The notes beneath the pieces were generated by a model. It searched no databases. It was not told the DNA's origin and saw only the letters and a program-made list of their open reading frames with translations. A stretch of 14,432 nt of DNA from contig JAHPYV010000053.1 in NCBI GenBank assembly GCA_019058495.1, positions 1-14,432 of the forward strand, given 5' to 3'. The position numbers and the translations under genes were made by a program. Positions within the stretch are counted from its first letter, which is position 1. Each line of letters begins with the position of its first letter. This document shows, piece after piece, positions 1,028-9,294 of this stretch. The stretch comes from Promethearchaeati archaeon. Lineage in GTDB: Archaea; Asgardarchaeota; Atabeyarchaeia; Atabeyarchaeales; Atabeyarchaeaceae.

Positions 1028-2692
1028 TCATAATGATTCAGCATTAAACTCAAATGCGGCTACCGGGTATTCCAGCTCAAAGTTTGTTATCACTTCTGGA
1101 TGAAGCTCCCCGAGAATTGCGATTCTCTTGCCTCGTATGAAACTTTCAGCGGCTCTACCTCTAATGAAGCTTGGGTGTTCTATTTGTGAAAAAGATGTTT
1201 GATTTGCATTCTTGCCGAAACCACCCATGAAAGCTAAGAATACGGACTTTATCTCTGCAAAATTGGCGGTCGGGTGTATTGTGACCGCAGAACAGTGGAG
1301 TTCTTGACCCACACCTGTCTCAGATCCAGAATCTGAACAGATTACATCTCCTACTTCGAATACTCTTTGGGGAAGTTTCTCATGTTTGTTTGTTCTCAGC
1401 GTTCTAACTAGACCTGGAAGTAATGATTCCCTCAGGATCGTGTACTCCGAACTTACTGGATTTAGTAGCTTAACTAAGGGTGTCCCGGTTGTCCTCATGT
1501 ACTGGTAATGTTCTGTTTCGTTAGTAAGTGTGAAGTTTATGACTTCTTGGTATCCCAACCCAATCATGAGTCGCCTGCTTAAGGACTCAAGTCGTCTGGA
1601 AATGTTGGTTCTTCCTATCGTTAAGGATGAGGGCAATATGGGCTTGATTCTGAAGTATCCGTATCCTATTGCAACTTCTTCGGCTAGATCTACTTGGTGG
1701 AGAAAATCGACTCTAAATGGAGGAACCAATACGCTTAGTTTGTCTTCGTTGCTTTTCCTTACGTCGAAACGAGCTTTTCTGAGGCTCAGCGCAATCTCAT
1801 CTTGTGAGAGTCGGAGTCCCAATATCTTGTTGACATAAGCAGATGAGAGTGATAACTCCTTAGGTTTTAGAATCGGAGTTACATTCTTCTTCTCGCTTTC
1901 AGCCACAGTTATAGATTCTATCTTTCCGCCCATATCGGCAAGCTGTGTGACGATGAGGTTCAAGGCGTTGTTAATGGAATTGAGGGATGTTCCAGTCACA
2001 TCTATGAACAGGTTTCTAGTGGTTTCAGTTATTTGGGTCGCTGTGCCATTAATTATCGGTGGAAACGAGAGAACCTGGGTATTCTTGTCGACTATTATCG
2101 GGAATTTGGGAAATCCTTCAACAAGATGCTTGTAAGCAATTCCCTTGGGATGAGTGGAAAGGATCTCGTCTAGGCTTAGCTCTCTGTCTCCGCCCAGTGG
2201 AGTGAACTTCAGTGACTTTGGGTCAACCGCTTTGTACTTGAAAGGCGGCGTCACCGTGTCTAGGTTGTGCAATCCTATCGAAGCTTTTCGCCGGTCCCTG
2301 CCAATAGCCCAGTGTATGTCCTCTTGGGCGGCCATTAGTTCTTCTATGTCTGAGTCTGAAAGCTGGATATCTCTGCAGACGGCACCCACAATATAGGGTC
2401 TCACGTTCTTGACTGATTGTTCAACGATTAGTGATACCGTTCCCTTTGTAACATCGTATTTGGGCAGCCCGATTTCTATCTCCTGCAAGCCCTTGAGTGC
2501 TCGGGCGATGCCTACTTGGCTGGAGAAATCGGGTCGATTCGGGTTGTATTCTATTTTGATCCAGTCCTCGCCTTTCTCTTCGATCTCAACGCCTATCCAT
2601 GGGATCGCTTCTTCAAGTTGTTCGATCGTTATGTGTCTACCTAGTAGTGAAGACATTTTTTCCAGACTTAGTTTGACAACTGGCACCTTCAA
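1028..2692 (-). CDS. pheT: Phenylalanine--tRNA ligase beta subunit (archaeal type)
   Basis: 554-aa ORF of typical archaeal PheT length. The N-terminus (M)PVVKLSLEKMSSLLGR resembles archaeal PheT starts. It lies 8 nt downstream of pheS in the same orientation and ends with TGA. The true start may be the GTG at 2686 rather than the TTG at 2692. Confidence 0.93.
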   Translation of the reverse strand: MKVPVVKLSLEKMSSLLGRHITIEQLEEAIPWIGVEIEEKGEDWIKIEYNPNRPDFSSQVGIARALKGLQEIEIGLPKYDVTKGTVSLIVEQSVKNVRPYIVGAVCRDIQLSDSDIEELMAAQEDIHWAIGRDRRKASIGLHNLDTVTPPFKYKAVDPKSLKFTPLGGDRELSLDEILSTHPKGIAYKHLVEGFPKFPIIVDKNTQVLSFPPIINGTATQITETTRNLFIDVTGTSLNSINNALNLIVTQLADMGGKIESITVAESEKKNVTPILKPKELSLSSAYVNKILGLRLSQDEIALSLRKARFDVRKSNEDKLSVLVPPFRVDFLHQVDLAEEVAIGYGYFRIKPILPSSLTIGRTNISRRLESLSRRLMIGLGYQEVINFTLTNETEHYQYMRTTGTPLVKLLNPVSSEYTILRESLLPGLVRTLRTNKHEKLPQRVFEVGDVICSDSGSETGVGQELHCSAVTIHPTANFAEIKSVFLAFMGGFGKNANQTSFSQIEHPSFIRGRAAESFIRGKRIAILGELHPEVITNFELEYPVAAFEFNAESL

Positions 2693-2700
2693 ACGCCTCT

Positions 2701-4284
2701 TTACTGCATCTCAGGAATTGTTCTCAGCCAGTTCAACTCATTCTTGTAGGGAGTTCGGATATCGACACCTTCTGTCCTTATCATGAAGAGCCTCTCTAGC
2801 CCTTGTCCCCATGCTAAGACTGGATACTTGATTCCTAGGGGAAGGGTGACTTCGGGTCTAAAGATCCCCATGCCTCCGAGTTCTAGCCATCTTCCGACAT
2901 CGCTCTCCTTTCCGTTTTCACCAGTGTTCTTCCTCTCGATGTATACGACAGCCTCAGCGCTAGGCTCGGTGTATGGGAAGTATGAAGGCCAGAATCGAAC
3001 TTTCTCGAATCCGAGGCGGTTGTAGAATTCCTTGAGTATACCCATGAGGTCTGCTAGTGAGGCATCCTTATCCATTATTATTCCTTCGATTTGATGGAAC
3101 TCGGCGAGGTGTTTGTAATTGACTTTTTCGTTTCTGTATACTCGATCGATGGAGAATACTTTCACTGGCGGGTTGGGGTGGGAGGCGAGGTACTTGATGG
3201 TGGTTGCCGTGGTGTGCGTTCTCAAGATTACTTGTCGCGCAATATCCTTGCTCCATCTGTAACCCCATCCGGTTGATCCAGTTTCCCAACCGTCCTCATG
3301 TGTTTGCGCGACTCGTTTGACTATGCTTTGATCGGGAAGCTTAGCCTTTGAAGGGGATGTGAGGTAGAAGGTATCATGCATCTCCCTGGCAGGGTGATCT
3401 TGGGGTTGAAAGAGTGCATCAAAATTCCAGAAGGCAGATTCAACTAGGTTTCCTTTGATCTCCTCGAAACCTAGCTCGAGGAAGATCTCTCTTACTTCTT
3501 CGATTAACTCAACTATCGGATGATATTTCGCGATGAAAGTTGGCTCTGCTGACGCTGAGACATCGAAAGTTTTGAATTTCGCTTTCTTCCATTCGCCAGA
3601 CCTGATCATGTCAGGGGTGAGCTGAGTGACTTCCTCAACGACTACTACGCCACGGCGTACAGCCTCAAGTCCGACATCTGTTATTTCAAGAGTCCTTGAC
3701 TTGCGAGTTGCGACGTGTATCAGGTTCCGTTTCAGAAGAGACTCCGCCTCTATCTTTTGCTCTTGGTCGAGTGACGATAACGTGATCTCGGACACAGTTG
3801 ATAATTTTGTGATCATCTCTTCATCTGGGCCTTTTTGAGGTTTGCTGGTTGATCTTAGATAAAGCTTCCCGGCTTCCTTCGTTGTGTTGGCCCAATTCTT
3901 TCTTTTCAGCCAGCCTAGTGCCAGAGTCGCCTCATCGTCTGCGAGATGTAAATCATGCTTTAGGGAGTCGAATTCGCTGTTTCCTCCTTTTTTCTGAACG
4001 AGATAGTCTATCACTATTCTCTCAGGGAGACCGACTTTGGAGCGTATCATGCCTTCTTCGGTTAGTCTCGCATATTTCTCCTCTGATTCACGGATTGATA
4101 TCAGATCCTTCTCAGCTAGAGAAGTTGATGCTCCAAAAATAGTAGCTTGGTCGAGTCCCAGAGTCTCTACGAGCTCGATCACGTTGACTCTTTTCTTCAA
4201 CTTGGCCAAGGCATCCAGAACAGTTCCTTCAGCCCGGCTCAAACTTACGGGATTTGACGCTGTCATGACGTTTCTTCTCCCCAA
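2701..4284 (-). CDS. pheS: Phenylalanine--tRNA ligase alpha subunit (archaeal type)
   Basis: 527-aa ORF with class II aaRS motifs (FQPQDHPAREMHDTFYL, and a GMGIFRPEV..LAWGQGLERL C-terminus). The N-terminal winged-helix repeats are typical of archaeal PheS. The ATG at 4266 (MTASNP...) is a more likely start than the TTG at 4284. Confidence 0.93.
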   Translation of the reverse strand: MGRRNVMTASNPVSLSRAEGTVLDALAKLKKRVNVIELVETLGLDQATIFGASTSLAEKDLISIRESEEKYARLTEEGMIRSKVGLPERIVIDYLVQKKGGNSEFDSLKHDLHLADDEATLALGWLKRKNWANTTKEAGKLYLRSTSKPQKGPDEEMITKLSTVSEITLSSLDQEQKIEAESLLKRNLIHVATRKSRTLEITDVGLEAVRRGVVVVEEVTQLTPDMIRSGEWKKAKFKTFDVSASAEPTFIAKYHPIVELIEEVREIFLELGFEEIKGNLVESAFWNFDALFQPQDHPAREMHDTFYLTSPSKAKLPDQSIVKRVAQTHEDGWETGSTGWGYRWSKDIARQVILRTHTTATTIKYLASHPNPPVKVFSIDRVYRNEKVNYKHLAEFHQIEGIIMDKDASLADLMGILKEFYNRLGFEKVRFWPSYFPYTEPSAEAVVYIERKNTGENGKESDVGRWLELGGMGIFRPEVTLPLGIKYPVLAWGQGLERLFMIRTEGVDIRTPYKNELNWLRTIPEMQ

Positions 4285-4407
4285 GGAGGAGACCTTGAGT
4301 GACGATGAAATTCAGATGAAAAGGTTCAGGCTTTCATCACAGAAGTTGACTAAACGTCATTAAAACTCTTTGGTCAAGATCTCGGCAACTTGAGTTGTTG
4401 TGGAAGA

Positions 4408-4905
4408 TTAGTGATTGCTTCTCTTCTGCTGTGTTGCCTCGATTTCCCTAAGCGCGGTTGATTTGATTGGTTTTCCATTCCTTCCTAGTATCATTCTGAT
4501 TATGACTGGGCGAAGTGGTTTCAGACCTTTCTTACTCCTTTCTTGATTTATGCTTTTGACTACTGGAGCTGTCTCTACGCTGACCACAAGTGCCTCGATT
4601 CGAGGGTCGTCTGCAGTAATCCCAAACTGGCTTGATATTGGGATTATCTCTGCTCTCTCAATGCATCCTTCAGACGTTAAGAACTTCTTAATGTCATCAA
4701 CCCTTCGTTCATAGGGGTATATCAGCTCTTTCCTGAGTTTCTCAGTCAGCAGTTTCTTAGTTGCTACGCCGACAATCACTCTTTCGCCTACTTGGCATGC
4801 TTTGCGGAGCAATGCTTTGTGTCCCTCATGTAGATGGTCGAATGTTCCCCCTACGGCAACACATTTGAATCTTTGCATGTGAACCTTCTCCCCTGCAATG
4901 TGCAA
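4408..4905 (-). CDS. coaD: Phosphopantetheine adenylyltransferase, archaeal cytidylyltransferase-family PPAT
   Basis: It has the GGTFDHLHEGHKALL nucleotidyltransferase H-x-G-H motif. Its size of about 155-165 aa is typical of archaeal PPAT. The likely true start is the ATG at 4878 (MQRFKCVAVGG...). Confidence 0.75.
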   Translation of the reverse strand: MHIAGEKVHMQRFKCVAVGGTFDHLHEGHKALLRKACQVGERVIVGVATKKLLTEKLRKELIYPYERRVDDIKKFLTSEGCIERAEIIPISSQFGITADDPRIEALVVSVETAPVVKSINQERSKKGLKPLRPVIIRMILGRNGKPIKSTALREIEATQQKRSNH

Positions 4906-4985
4906 CTAAGCGAATGACTTAATTAAAAAGTAGTGTTAAGTGATAAAAGGATATTCTTAAGGTAAATCTCAAATCCGGGGATCCT

Positions 4986-5903
4986 TTGAATTTGAGAGAC
5001 ATGAACCAAGACAGCGGAGAACTATATGCCTATAGGAAAGCTGGGAAGATTGCATCCCTTGTCAGAACAAAAGTCGCTCAGCTGACAAGACCAGGAGTAC
5101 CGATCATAAAGATTTGCGAAGAAACAGAGAACATGATCAGAAAGATGGGTGGATTCCCGGCTTTCCCTACGAATGTTTCCGTGGATTACGTGACGGCTCA
5201 CTACACTTCGCCGCCGAATGACGAGACTACGATACCCGAAGACGGGCTTGTTAAAGTTGATCTTGGTGCTTCAATCAGCGGTTACTTGTCGGATACGGCG
5301 GTCACAGTCGATCTCAGTGGCAAAGAGATCGCCATGGTCGATACTGCTGAGAAAGCTCTGAGAGCAGCAATGTCGATCATAAAGGCTGGAATCAACGTAG
5401 GTCAAGTTGGAAAAGCAATAAGTGACACGATAGTGAGTGCTGGATTCAAGCCTATATCGAACCTTGGTGGGCATAGCCTGGCTAGATATGAGCTGCACTC
5501 AGGAACCTCGATTCCGAATGTCCTGACACATTCAGGGCAGGTGATGAGGGAAGGGGGAGTCTACGCTGTTGAACCATTTGTTACTAAGGCAGATGGAAAA
5601 GGATACGTGAAGGACACAGACAGCGCCTATATCTTTAGTTGCACTGATAGCATGCCCCCGGCGAGTCCGAAGGATAACCCTGAAGCGGAGTTGTTAACCG
5701 TATTGAAGAAAAGATTCGGTATACTTCCATTTTGTCTTCGATGGCTGGGCAGCGATTTCAATCTCAAGCAATTCAAGAGACTGATCAGATCAGGTTCAGT
5801 AATTTCGTATCCTGTTCTTGTGGAGGCTGGAAAAAGAATAGTGGCGCAGGCGGAGCATACCGTGCTAGTCAAGAAATATGGCTGCGATGTATTAACAACC
5901 TGA
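4986..5903 (+). CDS. map: Methionine aminopeptidase, type 2 (archaeal)
   Basis: It has the FPTNVSVDYVTAHYTSPP, VKVDLGASISGYLSDTA, GHSL..YELHSG and AQAEHTVLV motifs of type 2 MetAP. The likely start is the ATG at 5001. It ends with TGA at the expected length. Confidence 0.93.
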   Translation: MNLRDMNQDSGELYAYRKAGKIASLVRTKVAQLTRPGVPIIKICEETENMIRKMGGFPAFPTNVSVDYVTAHYTSPPNDETTIPEDGLVKVDLGASISGYLSDTAVTVDLSGKEIAMVDTAEKALRAAMSIIKAGINVGQVGKAISDTIVSAGFKPISNLGGHSLARYELHSGTSIPNVLTHSGQVMREGGVYAVEPFVTKADGKGYVKDTDSAYIFSCTDSMPPASPKDNPEAELLTVLKKRFGILPFCLRWLGSDFNLKQFKRLIRSGSVISYPVLVEAGKRIVAQAEHTVLVKKYGCDVLTT

Positions 5904-5949
5904 AAGCAAAGTAAGATCTAAGCTCAGGTCAAGTCGGATTCTCTTGTCT

Positions 5950-6354
5950 TCAGGATGCCCGAAGTTGAGTTTTCTGAATTGGAATCGTGTATATTGATCT
6001 GATAAACATCTCGCCTTCACATTCCTTGCACTTTCCAAGTGTCTTGTACATGTAGTCTCCCCTCTGAAAATCCCTCACTTCGGTATATTGACATTTATCG
6101 CACTTGATCACGGACACTGTTCTGAAAAGAGGGTTAACTACAGGTGTTCTCCACGCACTGCCGATGAGCGAGAAGAAGAAAGAGAATATGAGAAATCCTA
6201 CTATGATGCTTATTTGATCACCGTTCTGAAAACCTGTGTAGAGATAGGAGAGACCGAATATGAGGCAGAATATTGCTATCATGGCCGCGACTATTCGTGC
6301 GCCTCTAGCGCCTCCAGTTGGCTTTGGTCGTTCGCTGTCGCTCAACAGAATCAC
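5950..6354 (-). CDS. Small membrane protein with a C-terminal CxxC...CxxC zinc-ribbon; function unknown
   Basis: 134-aa ORF with two hydrophobic helices (IVAAMIAIFCLIFGLSYLY and IIVGFLIFSFFFSLIGSAW), followed by CDKC-x21-CKEC. It lies 11 nt downstream of the DUF1512-like gene on the same strand. Confidence 0.55.
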   Translation of the reverse strand: MILLSDSERPKPTGGARGARIVAAMIAIFCLIFGLSYLYTGFQNGDQISIIVGFLIFSFFFSLIGSAWRTPVVNPLFRTVSVIKCDKCQYTEVRDFQRGDYMYKTLGKCKECEGEMFIRSIYTIPIQKTQLRAS

Positions 6355-6365
6355 CTCTCTTGGTC

Positions 6366-7538
6366 CTAGCCGACTCCTACTGTGTTTCCAATTCCGGCGA
6401 TGATCACCGTTGATCCAGGTTCGGTCCTTTCCCTTACGATCTCTCTGACTCTTTCAGAAACCTTGTCAGCTGCGTCAGTGATCTCCTTTTTCATTGGCAT
6501 GACTGCTTCCTCAATTGCTTCCTTCACTAGTATTGCATCTAGGGGGATCTTGTATTTCACCGCAGCTTGCTCGATCTTGTATTTTTCAGGACCTGGGTCT
6601 CCTATAGCTGCTCCAACACCTTCGACGACATCGCCAGTTGTCTCACCTTCGAGTTTGCCAGCCGCGTCGATCATGATGATTCTTGAGATTTGACCCTTGT
6701 ATTCTTCGACCAATCTTTCAATAGCTTCTCCAGGTTTGCCTACGCGGCTACCAGGTCCCTTGGCTCTGACTAAGAGGACTTTTCTTTTATCAAGTTCAAT
6801 TTCAGCAACTGCAACTTCCTTTGCGACGTCGTCAGTTATTATTGGTTTGTCGCCATTTTTCTTGAATTCATCAACCAGACGAGCTGTAACAAGTGGTCCC
6901 AGCCCATCGCCTATTGGTTTTCCCAATGAGAATGCTTTCAGTGCTTCGAAGTACGCTTTGGCGATTCTCATGATCTGGTGCAGTTGCATTTGCACCTGCA
7001 GGGTAATATACATGTTCTTTTCCTTCTTTGCGAGAAGATAGTAGTGCCTAATGACTTTGAAAACAAAATAGACGGCGCTCGCAGCCTCAATTGTCCCCTC
7101 AAGATTCGATGCATCATCTTTGCTGGCGCCTGGAGCCATTCTCGCAACGGCATCTTCATAACCTAACTTTCTTACATCCAAGATGTGATCCAGTCTCTGA
7201 ATGACGCCGGCAGGGTCAAGGCTAACTGGCTCAATTGTTACAAACTCCATCATCGAAGCAACTGCTTTCGATGGATCTTCTGTAGGTTTTCCGAGATCCT
7301 TGACTGTCTTGATAGTTATTTCTTTTGATTCTTCTGACATCCGGTTCAGCTTGAACAGAGCAGCCTCTATCTGCTTCGTCATTCTCCAAACCATAATCGC
7401 TTGCTGGTAGAACGCGAAGATGAAGAAGGCACCGTAGAATAACAACATGAGAATAAAACTTAACGGATCACTACCTAAACCAAACTGCAGTGGCAAAGCT
7501 GACATATTTTCGGTGTCGCCTCTCTTATGACTATTCAT
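6366..7538 (-). CDS. Conserved archaeal membrane-anchored protein, DUF1512-like; function unknown
   Basis: 390-aa ORF with an ATG start, an N-terminal TM helix (FILMLLFYGAFFIFAFY) and a long soluble domain. The family assignment is recalled from memory rather than searched. The call that it is coding is firmer than the family name. Confidence 0.6.
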   Translation of the reverse strand: MNSHKRGDTENMSALPLQFGLGSDPLSFILMLLFYGAFFIFAFYQQAIMVWRMTKQIEAALFKLNRMSEESKEITIKTVKDLGKPTEDPSKAVASMMEFVTIEPVSLDPAGVIQRLDHILDVRKLGYEDAVARMAPGASKDDASNLEGTIEAASAVYFVFKVIRHYYLLAKKEKNMYITLQVQMQLHQIMRIAKAYFEALKAFSLGKPIGDGLGPLVTARLVDEFKKNGDKPIITDDVAKEVAVAEIELDKRKVLLVRAKGPGSRVGKPGEAIERLVEEYKGQISRIIMIDAAGKLEGETTGDVVEGVGAAIGDPGPEKYKIEQAAVKYKIPLDAILVKEAIEEAVMPMKKEITDAADKVSERVREIVRERTEPGSTVIIAGIGNTVGVG

Positions 7539-7707
7539 TATTACAGTGGGTAATCAGTAAACAAGAATAATGTAACCGTGCTTTTTATAAACTTGTGTAT
7601 TTAGGCAATCAACTAACAGAAACCATTGAAAAGAGTTTGAGAACGCATGGCTCTTGGCGAAAGCCTCGAGCGAGACAGATTGCAAGCAAATTGAAATGAA
7701 TCACAAA

Positions 7708-7873
7708 CAGCTTCTAGGTGGCAACATTCCGTGATCGGAACGGGAACGGGTGTTACTCCCCGCCTATGACCGAGCCCGCAGGCTCAGCCGTCCAAGCTTC
7801 CCGAGGGGTCTCCCACCTCAGTACAACAAGGATCGCGCGAGGACTTAACTTTCACGTGTTGCCACCAAAGCTG
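7708..7873 (-). other. Processing stem with a bulge-helix-bulge motif enclosing the permuted 5S core
   Basis: On the minus strand, GGTGGCAACA (7866-7857) pairs with TGTTGCCACC (7726-7717) over 10 bp. An outer helix pairs CAGCTT (7873-7868) with AAGCTG (7713-7708). Inside the stem come a 3-nt bulge GAA (7729-7727), a 4-bp helix CGTG (7856-7853)/CACG (7733-7730), and a 3-nt bulge AAA (7852-7850) on the opposite strand. Confidence 0.65.
7728..7850 (-). rRNA. Circularly permuted 5S rRNA gene (123-nt core)
   Basis: The minus strand reads AGTTAAGTCCTCGCGCGATCCTTGTTGTACTGAGGTGGGAGACCCCTCGGGAAGCTTGGACGGCTGAGCC-TGCG-GGCTCGGTCATAGGCGGGGAGTAACACCCGTTCCCGTTCCGATCACGGA. The first block is the canonical 5S 3' half (GUUAAG, helix II 3' strand UCCUCGC, GUACUG, helix IV hairpin, GGGAAGCUUGG, helix I 3' strand). 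The second block is the canonical 5' half (helix I 5' strand, GGUCAUAG, helix II 5' strand GCGGGGA, ACACCCGUUCCCGUUCCGAUCACGGAA). Helix I (GGCUCGGUC/GACGGCUGAGCC) is capped by the tetraloop UGCG. Total length is 123 nt, the normal 5S size. The region is GC-rich relative to its flanks. Confidence 0.8.
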
Positions 7874-7898
7874 TGTCTACTATCAAAGGATATAATTC

Positions 7899-7905
7899 TT
7901 ATAAA
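7899..7905 (-). promoter_or_regulatory. Candidate TATA box for the 5S transcription unit
   Basis: TTTATAA on the minus strand lies 26-32 nt upstream of the base of the outer processing helix (7873). This is the usual archaeal TATA-to-start spacing. Confidence 0.4.
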
Positions 7906-8015
7906 CCTAGCGATAATGCTCCAGTTAAGAGAGACGAAAAGCTTGGCCGCGTCGTTCATTCTCATTCGTCTTAGAGAAACGCTTAATTATGTGGATTATT
8001 GCATTTTATCTTGCA

Positions 8016-8223
8016 GGGGCTGTAGCCTAGCCTGGTTGGGCATCGGGCTCCAGTTATGTTGTATCCGTTTAACGCGACCGTAATCGGGATGACGAGTTAC
8101 TGGAGCGGCCCATACCGGAGAAACCCGAAGAGTGAATCGCTCGATGCGGGTTCACGCGGAAGTCAGGAGTTCAAATCTCTGCGCGGCTCTGCGCGCGGAG
8201 TGAGTATCTCCTCAGCCCCACCA
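8016..8223 (+). tRNA. tRNA-Trp (anticodon CCA) with three introns and an encoded CCA end
   Basis: The manual fold is as follows. Acceptor GGGGCTG (8016-8022) pairs with CAGCCCC (8213-8219). The D arm is GCCT-AGCCTGGTT-GGGC. The anticodon stem TCGGG (8043-8047) pairs with CCCGA (8124-8128), and the loop is CT-CCA-G with A38 at 8123. The T arm is AGGAG-TTCAAAT-CTCCT, followed by A73 and CCA (8221-8223). There are three insertions: 69 nt at 37/38 (8054-8122), about 31 nt in the variable loop (about 8131-8161, leaving AGGTC), and 31 nt in the T loop/stem (about 8177-8207; the boundary is ambiguous because ATCTC is repeated). A T5 run follows at 8224-8228. Confidence 0.85.
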
Positions 8224-8535: not shown

Positions 8536-9294
8536 TTATTGCAGTTCTCTTCTTCGTTGTCTTTTTTCTGGTGTCAAGGCTTCATTGGATCTTTGGTGCT
8601 TATCTTCTAGGTTGCAGGGGTGCCACCGTTTTCTTGGCATACTGTCTTTGTAGTTTTCCATCATTTCGTTGAACAAGTCGGCTCCTAAATGCAGGTAGTA
8701 TTCTACTCCTTTGATCCATCGCCCATTGAGCCTGCATTCGCGTTTGCTTATGTGGACCTTGAATTTAAGATTGAACCGCTTCTTGATCTGCTTGAGGAAT
8801 AACTTGCTGCCGGAGAAGAGTCTCGTCGTCCCTTGTTTTCCGTCCCCATCGAAGTACCCGAGCAGGAATGCGAGTTCTAGGTCTCGCCGCTTAAGGCTAG
8901 GGTATTTGATGATTTTGGATTTCCGGCATTTTAGTCCGTGGCTTAGTAGATCATTAGTTATGTTCTTACATGCAAAACTAACCAGAGTGCGTTCCGTCTT
9001 CTCGTGGATGCGATGCCTTTTCCTATTCTTGTCTAGTCCTAGGAAATCACAGAATCTATCGATGGATTCTTCGTCTTTTCGTTTGAGTTCAAGTTCCAAT
9101 CGTGTTTTCGTTCCGATTTCAACCATTGTAGCGTCAGCGTAGAGGAATCCGAGCCAGTATGCCTTGTCTTTCGTGTTAATATTGTGAAAGTAATCGATTT
9201 TCAGGTCAGGATGAACAGTCATCCTCTTCCACCGACGGTACCATTTCTTTGTTAGGTGGTTCAAGGTATGACTGGGTTTCTGTTCCAAGACCAT
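8536..9294 (-). CDS. Double-motif LAGLIDADG homing endonuclease (free-standing)
   Basis: 252-aa ORF with an ATG start and two LAGLIDADG motifs: YWLGFLYADAT and AFLLGYFDGDGKQG. The spacing and basic linker are typical of monomeric enzymes. It lies between two paralogous tRNA genes, on the opposite strand. Confidence 0.85.
   Translation of the reverse strand: MVLEQKPSHTLNHLTKKWYRRWKRMTVHPDLKIDYFHNINTKDKAYWLGFLYADATMVEIGTKTRLELELKRKDEESIDRFCDFLGLDKNRKRHRIHEKTERTLVSFACKNITNDLLSHGLKCRKSKIIKYPSLKRRDLELAFLLGYFDGDGKQGTTRLFSGSKLFLKQIKKRFNLKFKVHISKRECRLNGRWIKGVEYYLHLGADLFNEMMENYKDSMPRKRWHPCNLEDKHQRSNEALTPEKRQRRRELQ

What the first reader, a model, noticed from the sequence alone, without database searches (positions are those of the whole stretch)
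7708..7873. Circularly permuted 5S rRNA gene
On the minus strand, every recognisable 5S element is present at the normal total length of 123 nt, but the order is swapped. The block that normally forms the 3' half comes first. It runs from GUUAAG through the loop E-like GUACUG/GGGAAGCUUGG to the helix I 3' strand. The block that normally forms the 5' half comes second. It holds the helix I 5' strand, GGUCAUAGGCGGGG and ACACCCGUUCCCGUUCCGAUCACGGAA. The natural 3' and 5' ends are fused through a UGCG tetraloop capping helix I (GAGCC-TGCG-GGCTC, 7772-7785). The new gene ends fall inside the loop C/helix III region. Helix II still pairs across the two blocks (GCGGGGA/UCCUCGC), so this is not a random rearrangement fragment. 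Precedents exist for permuted RNA genes resolved by the tRNA splicing machinery: permuted tRNAs, permuted SRP RNA in Thermoproteus, and permuted 23S in Pyrococcus. I am not aware of a permuted 5S rRNA gene.
Basis: partly seen in the sequence, partly recalled or inferred. Interest (0 to 1): 0.9.

Follow-up and report, generated by a model that had tools for sequence, protein, structure and literature searches.

The report
Circularly permuted 5S rRNA gene, Asgard archaea
This Asgard archaeon encodes its 5S ribosomal RNA with the two halves in swapped order, flanked by a tRNA-intron-type splice signal that should cut the transcript and join its ends into a normal (probably circular) 5S, and I found the same layout in at least three Asgard lineages, where standard rRNA finders miss it.

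Summary
On the minus strand, 7850-7728 holds a complete 123-nt 5S rRNA whose 3' part (7850-7781) precedes its 5' part (7776-7728). The natural ends are fused by a UGCG cap (7780-7777).

- **Rotation test.** Rfam's 5S model finds only two sub-threshold pieces in swapped order (22 and 20 bits). A model built from conventional 5S rRNAs of other archaea, rotated in silico, hits 7728-7850 full length at 67.7 bits. The same sequences unrotated give 19 bits.
- **Splice signal.** Leader and trailer form a canonical bulge-helix-bulge motif: a 10-bp outer helix, a 4-bp CGUG/CACG helix and two 3-nt bulges. Its predicted cuts join ...CACGGA to AGUUAAG..., the 5S consensus.
- **Conservation.** The arrangement is present in every relative examined (Atabeyarchaeia). 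It also occurs in MAGs labelled Odinarchaeia and Helarchaeota/Hodarchaeota. Across 11 sequences, 17 base pairs carry compensatory changes.
- **Orthologous site.** Nezhaarchaeota and Ranarchaeia carry a conventional 5S next to the same neighbouring gene; the Ranarchaeia copy has an intron-like insert.

The likely mechanism is splicing-endonuclease cleavage followed by RtcB ligation into a circle. I found no prior report in the searchable literature. RNA-level proof is missing, and I could not rule out a conventional 5S elsewhere in the genome.

The parts
7899..7905 (-). TATA box TTTATAA (within GCUAGGUUUAUAAGAA), about 33 nt upstream of the outer helix; predicted own promoter of the pre-5S transcript
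   Evidence: Sequence. The same TTTATAAGAA block sits at the same distance in all Atabeyarchaeia-type loci, and TTTATATA-type boxes occur in the Odinarchaeia-type loci. Promoter function is inferred from archaeal promoter knowledge and was not tested.
7867..7874 (-). Leader strand of an extended processing stem (ACAGCUUU). It pairs with 7707-7714 across a 2-nt UA bulge.
   Evidence: Read. It forms in the minimum-free-energy folds of the precursor.
7857..7866 (-). 5' strand of the outer helix of the bulge-helix-bulge motif (GGUGGCAACA). It pairs with 7717-7726.
   Evidence: The 10 bp are predicted by RNAalifold. Five of the 10 pairs show changes on both sides across 11 sequences, for example GGUGGCAUCG/CGAUGCCACC and GGUAGUAUCG/CGAUACUACC. 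A third lineage has AAAUAAUAU/AUAUUAUUU.
7853..7856 (-). 5' strand of the central 4-bp helix H (CGUG). It pairs with CACG at 7730-7733.
   Evidence: Invariant in 11 of 11 sequences. Folds with H enforced lie 0.5-12 kcal/mol above the unconstrained minimum.
7850..7852 (-). 5' three-nucleotide bulge (AAA). The predicted cut is between 7851 and 7850, and A7850 becomes the first retained nucleotide.
   Evidence: The bulge reads AAA, AGA or UGA across relatives. Only the retained third A is invariant.
7781..7850 (-). Block A, the normal 3' portion of 5S: AGUUAAG (loop B 3' side), helix II 3' strand, helices V and IV with the loop E-like GUA/GAA, loop D GAGA, and helix I 3' strand
   Evidence: Rfam alignment, R2 alignment, and compensatory changes in helices II, IV and I.
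7777..7780 (-). UGCG tetraloop fusing the natural 3' and 5' ends and capping helix I
   Evidence: The cap is UGCG or UUCG in every permuted copy in all three lineages, while the closing stem covaries (GAGCC/GGCUC, GGCGG/CCGCC, GCCGG/CCGGC, GUCAG/CUGAC).
7728..7776 (-). Block B, the normal 5' portion of 5S: helix I 5' strand, loop A CAUAG, helix II 5' strand, loop B, helix III and loop C, ending ...CACGGA
   Evidence: Rfam hit to model positions 27-51, R2 full-length match ending at 7728.
7730..7733 (-). 3' strand of central helix H (CACG). It overlaps the helix III 3' strand, so H and helix III are mutually exclusive.
7727..7729 (-). 3' three-nucleotide bulge (GAA). The predicted cut is between 7728 and 7727, and A7728 is the last retained nucleotide.
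   Evidence: The bulge reads GAA, GAU or GAG across relatives. Only the discarded third position varies.
7717..7726 (-). 3' strand of the outer helix (UGUUGCCACC)
7707..7714 (-). Trailer strand of the extended stem (GAAGCUGU), followed by T-rich sequence that may act as a terminator
   Evidence: The terminator role is inferred only.

Best explanation
This is most likely the organism's working 5S rRNA gene, circularly permuted at the DNA level. I propose four steps.

1. It is transcribed from its own TATA promoter as a precursor of roughly 170 nt.
2. The leader and trailer pair into a canonical helix-bulge-helix-bulge-helix motif. This has a 10-bp outer helix, a 4-bp CGUG/CACG helix and 3-nt bulges AAA and GAA. 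The archaeal tRNA-splicing endonuclease cuts after the second nucleotide of each bulge.
3. RtcB ligase joins A7728 to A7850. That recreates the normal ...CACGGA-AGUUAAG... link between helix III and loop B and yields a 123-nt covalently closed RNA.
4. Once the leader is gone, helix III forms in place of the 4-bp helix and the RNA adopts the standard 5S fold, with helix I closed by a UNCG-type tetraloop.

I think the circle itself is the mature ribosomal 5S. Re-opening at the cap is the main sub-alternative.

**Shown:** the permuted order, the 5S fold, the covariation, the motif geometry, and conservation across lineages.

**Inferred:** transcription, cleavage, ligation, circular end state, and use in ribosomes.
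For: **Permutation and 5S identity**
- Rfam finds the two halves in swapped order.
- The rotated sequence and the circle fold into a canonical 5S.
- The rotated-conventional model R2 gives 67.7 bits full length, with boundaries exactly at 7728 and 7850. The unrotated model R3 gives 19.0 bits.

**Selection on the fold**
- In 11 distinct permuted sequences, 95.8% of cells pair.
- 17 of 48 pairs have changes on both sides. No shuffle out of 500 reached this, and the slid controls gave 7 or fewer.
- These pairs lie in helices I, II and IV and in the outer leader/trailer helix.

**Splice motif**
- The geometry matches the published definition: a 4-bp helix flanked by two 3-nt bulges (PMC7714728; PMC4731332).
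- Positions predicted to be kept are invariant: the third nucleotide of the 5' bulge and nucleotides 1-2 of the 3' bulge.
- Positions predicted to be discarded vary.
- The predicted product equals the Rfam consensus CggAAguUAAG.

**Independent lineage.** The Helarchaeota/Hodarchaeota-labelled loci have a completely different A/U outer helix and H (GCCG/CGGU). They still yield a junction of the correct length.

**Orthologous position.** The permuted gene sits beside the DUF1512 gene. Nezhaarchaeota and Methanomethylicota have a conventional 5S there at 86-97 bits. Ranarchaeia have one at 77 bits.

**Not an assembly artefact.** It was seen in more than 10 independent assemblies from NCBI, JGI and Logan.

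**Machinery and context**
- 92-95% of Atabeyarchaeia tRNA genes carry introns (PMC11291895).
- RtcB is annotated in Atabeyarchaeia-1.
- A three-times-interrupted tRNA-Trp gene lies 150 nt away in this window.

**Feasibility.** E. coli ribosomes work with 5S whose native ends are joined by a tetraloop (PMC7283268). Thermoproteus SRP RNA is a permuted gene matured to a circle in the same way (PMC4731332).
Against: - No RNA data were available. Transcription, cleavage, ligation and the circular state are all inferred.
- The inner helix of the motif is weak: 3 bp, two of them G-U in this window.
- The central helix competes with helix III. The unconstrained minimum-free-energy fold of the precursor does not choose the motif.
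A conventional 5S elsewhere is therefore not excluded.
- Models R1-R3 rest on few sequences and a shortened calibration, so their E-values are rough.
- Covariation counts come from related sequences, and most of the diversity comes from two outgroup sequences.
Confidence: 0.8

Rival explanations
1. Same gene and same splicing, but the circle is only an intermediate. A second cleavage removes or nicks the UNCG cap of helix I, giving a linear 5S with conventional ends. [quoted passage not shown]
For: [quoted passage not shown] Pyrococcus 23S is circularised and then opened elsewhere (PMC7758197, listed). Helix I here has the normal length of about 9 bp.
Against: The cap is always a UGCG or UUCG tetraloop in three deep lineages, while the stem beneath it covaries. 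That looks like selection for a stable retained hairpin rather than a disposable linker. No conserved processing motif is visible at the cap. Circular 23S is reported inside mature ribosomes of many archaea (PMC12918454), and Thermoproteus SRP RNA stays circular.
Confidence: 0.2
2. The transcript is trimmed but never ligated. The mature 5S is a linear, permuted molecule whose ends lie at the helix III/loop B boundary and are held together only by the fold. This is the situation described for brown-algal mitochondrial 5S.
For: Permuted linear 5S exists in brown-algal mitochondria (PMC4267664). All helices can form in the unligated permuted RNA.
Against: Without ligation, helix III and loop C would hang from the body by a single strand. 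Leader/trailer pairing with exact bulge-helix-bulge geometry is conserved with compensatory changes, and such selection is hard to explain if only end trimming were needed. In every characterised case, the ends made by this endonuclease are joined by RtcB (PMC4731332).
Confidence: 0.08
3. The locus is a rearranged relic or a 5S-derived non-ribosomal RNA, and a conventional 5S gene elsewhere supplies the ribosome.
For: The remainder of the genome could not be searched. Some Asgard lineages do have conventional 5S genes (PMC9723677; Ranarchaeia).
Against: The sequence is about 90% or more conserved across relatives whose neighbouring protein is only 77% identical. Compensatory changes keep every helix. 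It occupies the ancestral 5S position next to DUF1512. It has a conserved promoter box. No conventional 5S appears in any of the flanking DNA fetched for 12 permuted loci. Authors of closed Heimdallarchaeum genomes reported that no 5S gene could be predicted (PMC8813620).
Confidence: 0.04

Closest known systems
Permuted SRP RNA gene of Thermoproteus tenax / T. uzoniensis (Plagens et al. 2015, PMC4731332)
   Same: A universal structured RNA whose gene seemed to be 'missing'. The 3' part is encoded upstream of the 5' part. Leader and trailer form a bulge-helix-bulge motif cut by the tRNA-splicing endonuclease, and ligation restores a functional element. The gene has its own TATA promoter. The host has an exceptional load of tRNA introns (compared).
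   Different: It is a different RNA (SRP RNA versus 5S rRNA) in a different phylum (Thermoproteota versus Asgard). There the circle is experimentally shown; here it is inferred. Here the former termini are capped by a 4-nt loop on an intact helix I.
Circularly permuted tRNA genes (Cyanidioschyzon merolae; Soma et al. 2007, cited in PMC4267664)
   Same: The 3' half lies upstream of the 5' half. Processing goes through a circular intermediate at a bulge-helix-bulge-like junction. The proposed origin is duplication of an intron-containing gene.
   Different: Those are eukaryotic nuclear tRNAs, and the circle is re-opened by RNase P and RNase Z to give linear tRNA. Details are from my own knowledge and the citation, and were not re-read here.
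Archaeal circular pre-16S/23S rRNA, permuted 23S of Pyrococcus/Thermococcus and circular 23S in ribosomes (PMC7758197, PMC12918454, PMC10515664)
   Same: A bulge-helix-bulge motif in a leader/trailer processing stem, cleaved by EndA and circularised, for a ribosomal RNA.
   Different: In those cases the gene is collinear with the RNA, and circularisation is not needed to restore connectivity. The same papers state that 5S is not processed this way.
Permuted mitochondrial 5S rRNA of brown algae (Rfam mtPerm-5S; Valach et al. 2014, PMC4267664)
   Same: A 5S rRNA whose helix I is a closed hairpin and whose ends lie elsewhere.
   Different: The ends are at the loop A junction between domains alpha and gamma. 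The product is linear and permuted, with no splice motif and no ligation, and the setting is an organelle. In the present case the break is between helix III and loop B and is predicted to be resealed.
Engineered E. coli cp5S (Huang et al. 2020, PMC7283268)
   Same: The native 5S ends are linked by a 4-nt connector and the ribosomes are functional. This shows that a capped helix I is tolerated.
   Different: It is synthetic. It is opened in loop C or D and fused into 23S rRNA.

Membership tests
5S rRNA (Rfam RF00001) | Three-way junction with helix I, the helix II-III arm and the helix IV-V arm | tested here: met
   The minimum-free-energy fold of the rotated sequence and of the circle is the canonical 5S. 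Across 11 sequences, 95.8% of cells pair and 17 pairs have double changes.
5S rRNA (Rfam RF00001) | Conserved loop motifs: loop A CAUAG, loop C CCCGUUCCGA, AGUUAAG, and the loop E GUA/GAA | tested here: met
   Rfam alignments of both pieces; invariant columns.
5S rRNA (Rfam RF00001) | Collinear match to the family model at or above the gathering score (38 bits) | tested here: not met
   The native order gives 22 and 20.4 bits, and the matched unrotated model R3 gives 19.0 bits. This is expected for a permuted gene. The in-silico rotated model R2 gives 67.7 bits full length. Rfam itself could not be run on a rotated sequence with these tools.
5S rRNA (Rfam RF00001) | [quoted passage not shown] | not testable with these tools
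   Needs RNA or ribosome data.
Substrates of the archaeal tRNA-splicing endonuclease (bulge-helix-bulge motif) | Central helix of exactly 4 bp | tested here: met
   CGUG (7856-7853) pairs with CACG (7733-7730) and is invariant in 11 of 11 sequences. The third lineage has GCCG/CGGU. The definition is taken from PMC7714728.
Substrates of the archaeal tRNA-splicing endonuclease (bulge-helix-bulge motif) | Two 3-nt bulges on opposite strands, each 3' of its central-helix strand | tested here: met
   AAA at 7852-7850 and GAA at 7729-7727. The same layout is present in all copies.
Substrates of the archaeal tRNA-splicing endonuclease (bulge-helix-bulge motif) | Flanking helices on both sides | tested here: inconclusive
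   The outer helix is strong and covaries: 10 bp, 5 pairs with double changes. The inner helix is only 3 weak pairs (G-U, U-A, U-G here). This corresponds to the relaxed forms accepted by some endonucleases.
Substrates of the archaeal tRNA-splicing endonuclease (bulge-helix-bulge motif) | Actual cleavage by EndA and ligation by RtcB | not testable with these tools
   Only indirect support: RtcB is annotated in Atabeyarchaeia-1, and 92-95% of tRNA genes in the lineage contain introns.
Circularly permuted RNA genes (tRNA, SRP RNA type) | 3' part upstream of 5' part on one strand, with the natural termini joined by a short linker | tested here: met
Circularly permuted RNA genes (tRNA, SRP RNA type) | Circular RNA carrying the repaired junction | not testable with these tools
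   Needs back-splice reads or RNase R treatment.
Brown-algal mitochondrial permuted 5S (mtPerm-5S) | Ends at the loop A junction, linear permuted product, no splice motif | tested here: not met
   The break here is between helix III and loop B and is flanked by a bulge-helix-bulge motif. This locus is not a member of that family.

The most novel reading that the evidence does not exclude
In a broad set of Asgard archaea (Atabeyarchaeia, Odinarchaeia and a lineage labelled Helarchaeota/Hodarchaeota) the only 5S rRNA gene is circularly permuted, and the 5S rRNA that sits in the ribosome is a covalently closed circle with no free ends. It would be made by the tRNA-splicing endonuclease and RtcB. 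This would be the reason that 5S genes 'cannot be predicted' in several closed Asgard genomes.
Probability: 0.45. Interest if true: 0.92.

Novelty: new variant of a known kind. Interest (0 to 1): 0.86.

Why it matters
5S rRNA is universal, and its gene has been treated as trivially recognisable in archaea, bacteria and nuclei (PMC4267664). A 5S gene that must be cut and re-joined before it can fold makes ribosome biogenesis depend on the tRNA-splicing machinery. It probably also yields a circular ribosomal 5S RNA, which I did not find reported.

- **Annotation.** It explains missing 5S calls in Asgard genomes; for example, the authors of the closed Heimdallarchaeum genomes could not predict a 5S gene (PMC8813620). 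It also affects MAG quality standards that require a 5S gene. Annotation pipelines need a permuted model.
- **Evolution.** I found three related states in Asgard 5S genes: permuted genes, a permuted gene with a nested intron, and a collinear gene with an intron-like insert. Together with the extreme tRNA intron load of these organisms, they offer a natural series for studying how introns give rise to permuted genes in the closest archaeal relatives of eukaryotes.

Tried and rejected
- **Standard finders.** Rfam at gathering threshold and ARAGORN on the window found nothing. This explains why such genes are unannotated.
- **Exact-protein look-up.** The look-up of the neighbouring ORF failed. 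A later search showed the same 390-aa protein is on record as P0001, so the cause is unclear.
- **Precursor folding.** Unconstrained minimum-free-energy folding did not produce the bulge-helix-bulge motif, because helix III wins. I therefore enforced the motif and compared energies.
- **RNAalifold.** On the native alignment it mis-paired the helix V region, so I supplied the 5S pairs by hand. My first register for the 2-bp loop B helix (G20-C117) is broken in 3 sequences, and the RNAalifold register (G20-C119) fits all.
- **Metagenome scan.** The pattern scan returned only 6 stretches. Two were chance matches in coding or repeat DNA (L017, L020), one duplicated a locus already held, and one was truncated.
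- **First in-silico rotation of L001.** It cut at the wrong TTCG, and I discarded it.
- **Assembly artefact.** Considered and rejected, because the arrangement recurs in independent assemblies.
- **Tandem 5S array.** Considered and rejected, because the flanks are unique.
- **Membership of the brown-algal permuted 5S family.** Considered and rejected, because the break point and the chemistry differ.
- **Literature.** Ten searches found no archaeal permuted 5S, circular 5S or 5S intron report. Subscription-only papers are not covered.
- **Taxon labels.** Labels for the third lineage conflict: a protein 95% identical is labelled Helarchaeota and one 88% identical is labelled Hodarchaeota. I left this unresolved.
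Full report
**What is in the window.**

On the minus strand the sequence reads, 5' to 3':
- a TATA box, TTTATAA (7905-7899);
- a leader;
- GGUGGCAACA (7866-7857);
- CGUG (7856-7853);
- AAA (7852-7850);
- AGUUAAG..., continuing through the helix II 3' strand, helices V and IV with a loop E-like GUA/GAA, and the helix I 3' strand GGCUGAGCC;
- UGCG (7780-7777);
- the helix I 5' strand GGCUCGGUC, CAUAG, the helix II 5' strand, ACACCCGUUCCCGUUCCGAUCACGG (helix III and loop C), ending ...CACGGA at 7728;
- A7727, the discarded third nucleotide of the 3' bulge;
- UGUUGCCACC (7726-7717);
- a trailer.

The window is a complete 14,432-bp NCBI contig, because the neighbouring protein is on record with exactly that contig length. 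It has about 46% G+C, while the RNA has 62%.

**Check of the observation.**

Rfam at its curated thresholds finds nothing in the window, and ARAGORN finds no tRNA. In E-value mode Rfam reports two sub-threshold 5S hits on the minus strand in the wrong order:
- 7875-7782, 22 bits, truly aligned from AGUUAAG to the 3' end of the model;
- 7751-7727, 20.4 bits, model positions 27-51.

Opened at the UGCG loop, the 119-nt sequence folds by minimum free energy into the textbook 5S three-way junction (-52.6 kcal/mol). Folded as a circle, the 123-mer gives the same structure (-49.8 kcal/mol).

- I took six conventional 5S rRNAs. Five came from Nezhaarchaeota/Methanomethylicota loci and one from Ranarchaeia with its insert removed.
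- I rotated them in silico at CGGA|AGUUAA and capped them with UUCG.
- From these I built model R2, and from the same sequences unrotated I built model R3.
- R2 matches window 7728-7850 end to end at 67.7 bits (E about 2e-13). R3 gives 19.0 bits (E 0.14).
- Conventional genes behave in the opposite way: 139-149 bits with R3 and 37-51 bits with R2.

The permutation is real. The one detail to correct is that the new ends lie between helix III and loop B, not in loop C.

**The splice signal.**

Leader and trailer form a canonical helix-bulge-helix-bulge-helix motif:
- a 10-bp outer helix;
- immediately followed, on the 5' strand, by the 4-bp helix CGUG/CACG;
- a 3-nt bulge 3' of each strand of that helix (AAA and GAA);
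- a weak 3-bp inner helix.

This matches the published definition of the substrate of archaeal splicing endonucleases (PMC7714728; PMC4731332). Cleavage after the second bulge nucleotide is the canonical position; I take that from my own knowledge of pre-tRNA introns at position 37/38. It releases an RNA that starts at A7850 and ends at A7728. Joining those ends gives CACGGA-AGUUAAG, which is the Rfam consensus CggAAguUAAG.

CACG is also the 3' strand of helix III, so the motif and helix III are alternatives. Folds with the motif enforced lie 0.5-12 kcal/mol above the unconstrained minimum, and they keep helices I, II, IV and V.

**Relatives.**

*Atabeyarchaeia-type relatives.*
- The adjacent DUF1512 protein (6366-7538, minus strand) is 77% identical to that of Candidatus Atabeyarchaeum deiterrae (Asgard; closed chromosome CP147780.1).
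- That genome carries the same permuted gene at the same place (L001). So does every other close relative recovered from NCBI, JGI and Logan assemblies whose DUF1512 is 77-94% identical.
- Among them the helix I cap is UGCG or UUCG. The distal helix I switches between GAGCC/GGCUC and GGCGG/CCGCC.
- The bulges read A/U-A/G-A and G-A-A/U/G. Only the nucleotides predicted to be discarded vary.

*Odinarchaeia-type relatives.*
- An MAG labelled Odinarchaeia (L021/L022) and an unnamed relative (L023) have the same permuted order, the same CGUG/CACG helix and the same junction.
- Their outer helices carry compensatory changes: GGUGGCAUCG/CGAUGCCACC and GGUAGUAUCG/CGAUACUACC.

*Covariation.* On the 11 distinct sequences (alignment A1) with my hand-set structure:
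- 95.8% of cells pair;
- 17 of 48 pairs show changes on both sides, a count that no shuffle out of 500 reached and that the slid controls never exceeded 7;
- these pairs are spread over the outer helix (5), helix I (4), helix II (3), helix IV (4) and helix V (1).

Helix III and the 4-bp helix are invariant, so they are uninformative.

*A third lineage.*
- A model built from A1 (R1) found permuted copies in L024 and L028 (66-67 bits, E about 1e-15).
- These come from MAGs whose DUF1512 proteins depositors label Helarchaeota or Hodarchaeota.
- The outer helix there is A/U-only (AAAUAAUAU/AUAUUAUUU), the central helix is GCCG/CGGU, and the bulges are AAU and AAA.
- The predicted junction is CGGUAA|UUAAAC, two nucleotides away from the Atabeyarchaeia/Odinarchaeia site but of the correct length.
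- R2 scores these copies at about 60 bits.

*No conventional hit.* None of the permuted copies reaches the Rfam threshold.

**The ancestral position.**

In Nezhaarchaeota and Methanomethylicota a conventional, uninterrupted 5S (86-97 bits) lies directly upstream of DUF1512, on the opposite strand.

In Ranarchaeia a 5S in conventional order lies upstream of DUF1512 on the same strand, but it is 169 nt long (77 bits).
- The extra 47-48 nt sit in loop C.
- They can be drawn as a relaxed splice motif (UCCG/CGGG, bulges AAA and AAC).
- Predicted removal gives CCCAUUCCGAA-CUCGG, the consensus sequence.

L001 (Atabeyarchaeia-2) carries 29 extra nucleotides between the leader's CGUGAAA and AGUUAAG.
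- They end in a second CGUGAG.
- After the first splice they would form a second canonical motif (CACG-GAA-GCC...GGC-CGUG-AGA).
- Removal through that motif gives the same final junction.

So 5S genes in these archaea occur in three forms: collinear, collinear with an intron-like insert, and permuted (once with a nested intron). This fits the duplication-of-an-intron-containing-gene route proposed for permuted tRNA genes. That route is a hypothesis here, not a result.

**Mechanism and its status.**

Shown by computation: permuted order, 5S fold, covariation of the fold and of the leader/trailer helix, exact motif geometry, conservation of retained positions versus discarded ones, syntenic position, and recurrence in independent assemblies.

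Inferred: transcription from the conserved TATA box, cleavage by EndA, ligation by RtcB, and the end state.

Context supports the inference.
- 92-95% of Atabeyarchaeia tRNA genes have introns, often several and at non-canonical sites (PMC11291895).
- RtcB is annotated in Atabeyarchaeia-1.
- The window itself holds a tRNA-Trp gene with three interruptions about 150 nt from the 5S.

I favour a circular mature 5S, for three reasons.
- The cap is always a UNCG-type tetraloop while its stem covaries.
- Capped 5S works in E. coli ribosomes (PMC7283268).
- The nearest precedent, Thermoproteus SRP RNA, stays circular.

Re-opening at the cap remains possible.

**Comparison with what is known, and novelty.**

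The closest system is the permuted, circular SRP RNA of Thermoproteus. Permuted tRNA genes and circular or permuted 16S and 23S rRNAs are related. In the rRNA cases the gene is collinear, and the papers state that 5S is not processed through circularisation. The 'permuted' 5S of brown-algal mitochondria is a different thing: ends at loop A, a linear product and no splicing.

Ten full-text searches found no report of an archaeal permuted, circular or intron-containing 5S. The Atabeyarchaeia genome paper does not mention 5S. Authors of closed Heimdallarchaeum genomes wrote that 5S 'could not be predicted'.

I therefore rate this a new variant of a known kind: a known repair mechanism applied to a universal ribosomal RNA, spread over several Asgard lineages.

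**Limits.**
- There are no RNA data.
- The rest of the genome could not be scanned for a conventional 5S.
- Taxon labels of the third lineage conflict.
- The models rest on few sequences and rough E-values.
- The inner helix of the motif is weak.

Noticed in passing
window 8016-8223 (+): A tRNA-Trp(CCA) gene with three interruptions: after position 37, in the variable region and in the T-arm. ARAGORN and Rfam miss it. Joining the exons in silico gives a tRNA-Trp by ARAGORN. The first insert contains GAUGAC...ACUGGAGC, complementary to the anticodon loop, which is reminiscent of the C/D-box guide in the Haloferax tRNA-Trp intron (that comparison is from my own knowledge). Relatives differ in intron content; for example, some have an extra D-loop insert and some lack the T-arm insert.
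   Followed up: partly
L030 9560-9728 (+); also L031 220-388 and L032 253-421 (Ranarchaeia MAGs): A 5S rRNA gene in conventional order (RF00001, 77 bits) with a 47-48-nt insert in loop C. The insert can be drawn as a relaxed bulge-helix-bulge intron, and predicted removal restores CCCAUUCCGAACUCGG. I found no report of an intron in a 5S rRNA gene in the searched literature. An RtcB gene lies about 3 kb downstream.
   Followed up: partly
L001 9645-9673 (+) (Ca. Atabeyarchaeum deiterrae CP147780.1): A 29-nt insert (AGCCAUCAGGUACCUACCUGGGCCGUGAG) sits exactly at the permutation junction. It can form a second canonical bulge-helix-bulge motif after the first splice, so it is a nested intron or a duplicated splice site.
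   Followed up: partly
L024 3446-3596 (-) and L028 4536-4686 (-): A third, A/U-rich version of the permuted 5S. Its splice site is shifted by 2 nt and its helices are entirely different. The source MAGs are labelled Helarchaeota or Hodarchaeota by different depositors. Whether this is an independent origin or drift of the motif is open.
   Followed up: partly
window 8536-9294 (-): A free-standing 252-aa ORF with a LAGLIDADG-like domain (PF14528, 23.4 bits; the motif reads LLGYFDGDG). It lies between the tRNA-Trp gene and a PKD-domain protein. It may be a homing-endonuclease-type gene in an intron-rich genome.
   Followed up: no
window 7718-8083 (+): A 121-aa GTG ORF runs antisense across the whole 5S gene and its promoter. 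It is almost certainly spurious, but gene callers are likely to call it and so mask the RNA gene.
   Followed up: no
window 1028-7868 and loci L001, L011-L014, L021, L023-L028, L030: A conserved neighbourhood: PheRS beta and alpha, a phosphopantetheine adenylyltransferase-like gene, methionine aminopeptidase, a small ORF, DUF1512 and 5S. The 5S-DUF1512 linkage extends from Nezhaarchaeota to Asgard archaea, although strand and exact position vary.
   Followed up: partly
window 7930-7954 (+): A weak sub-threshold Rfam hit to the C/D-box sRNA family sR32 (13.7 bits, E 0.37), between the 5S promoter and the tRNA-Trp gene. It is probably chance.
   Followed up: no
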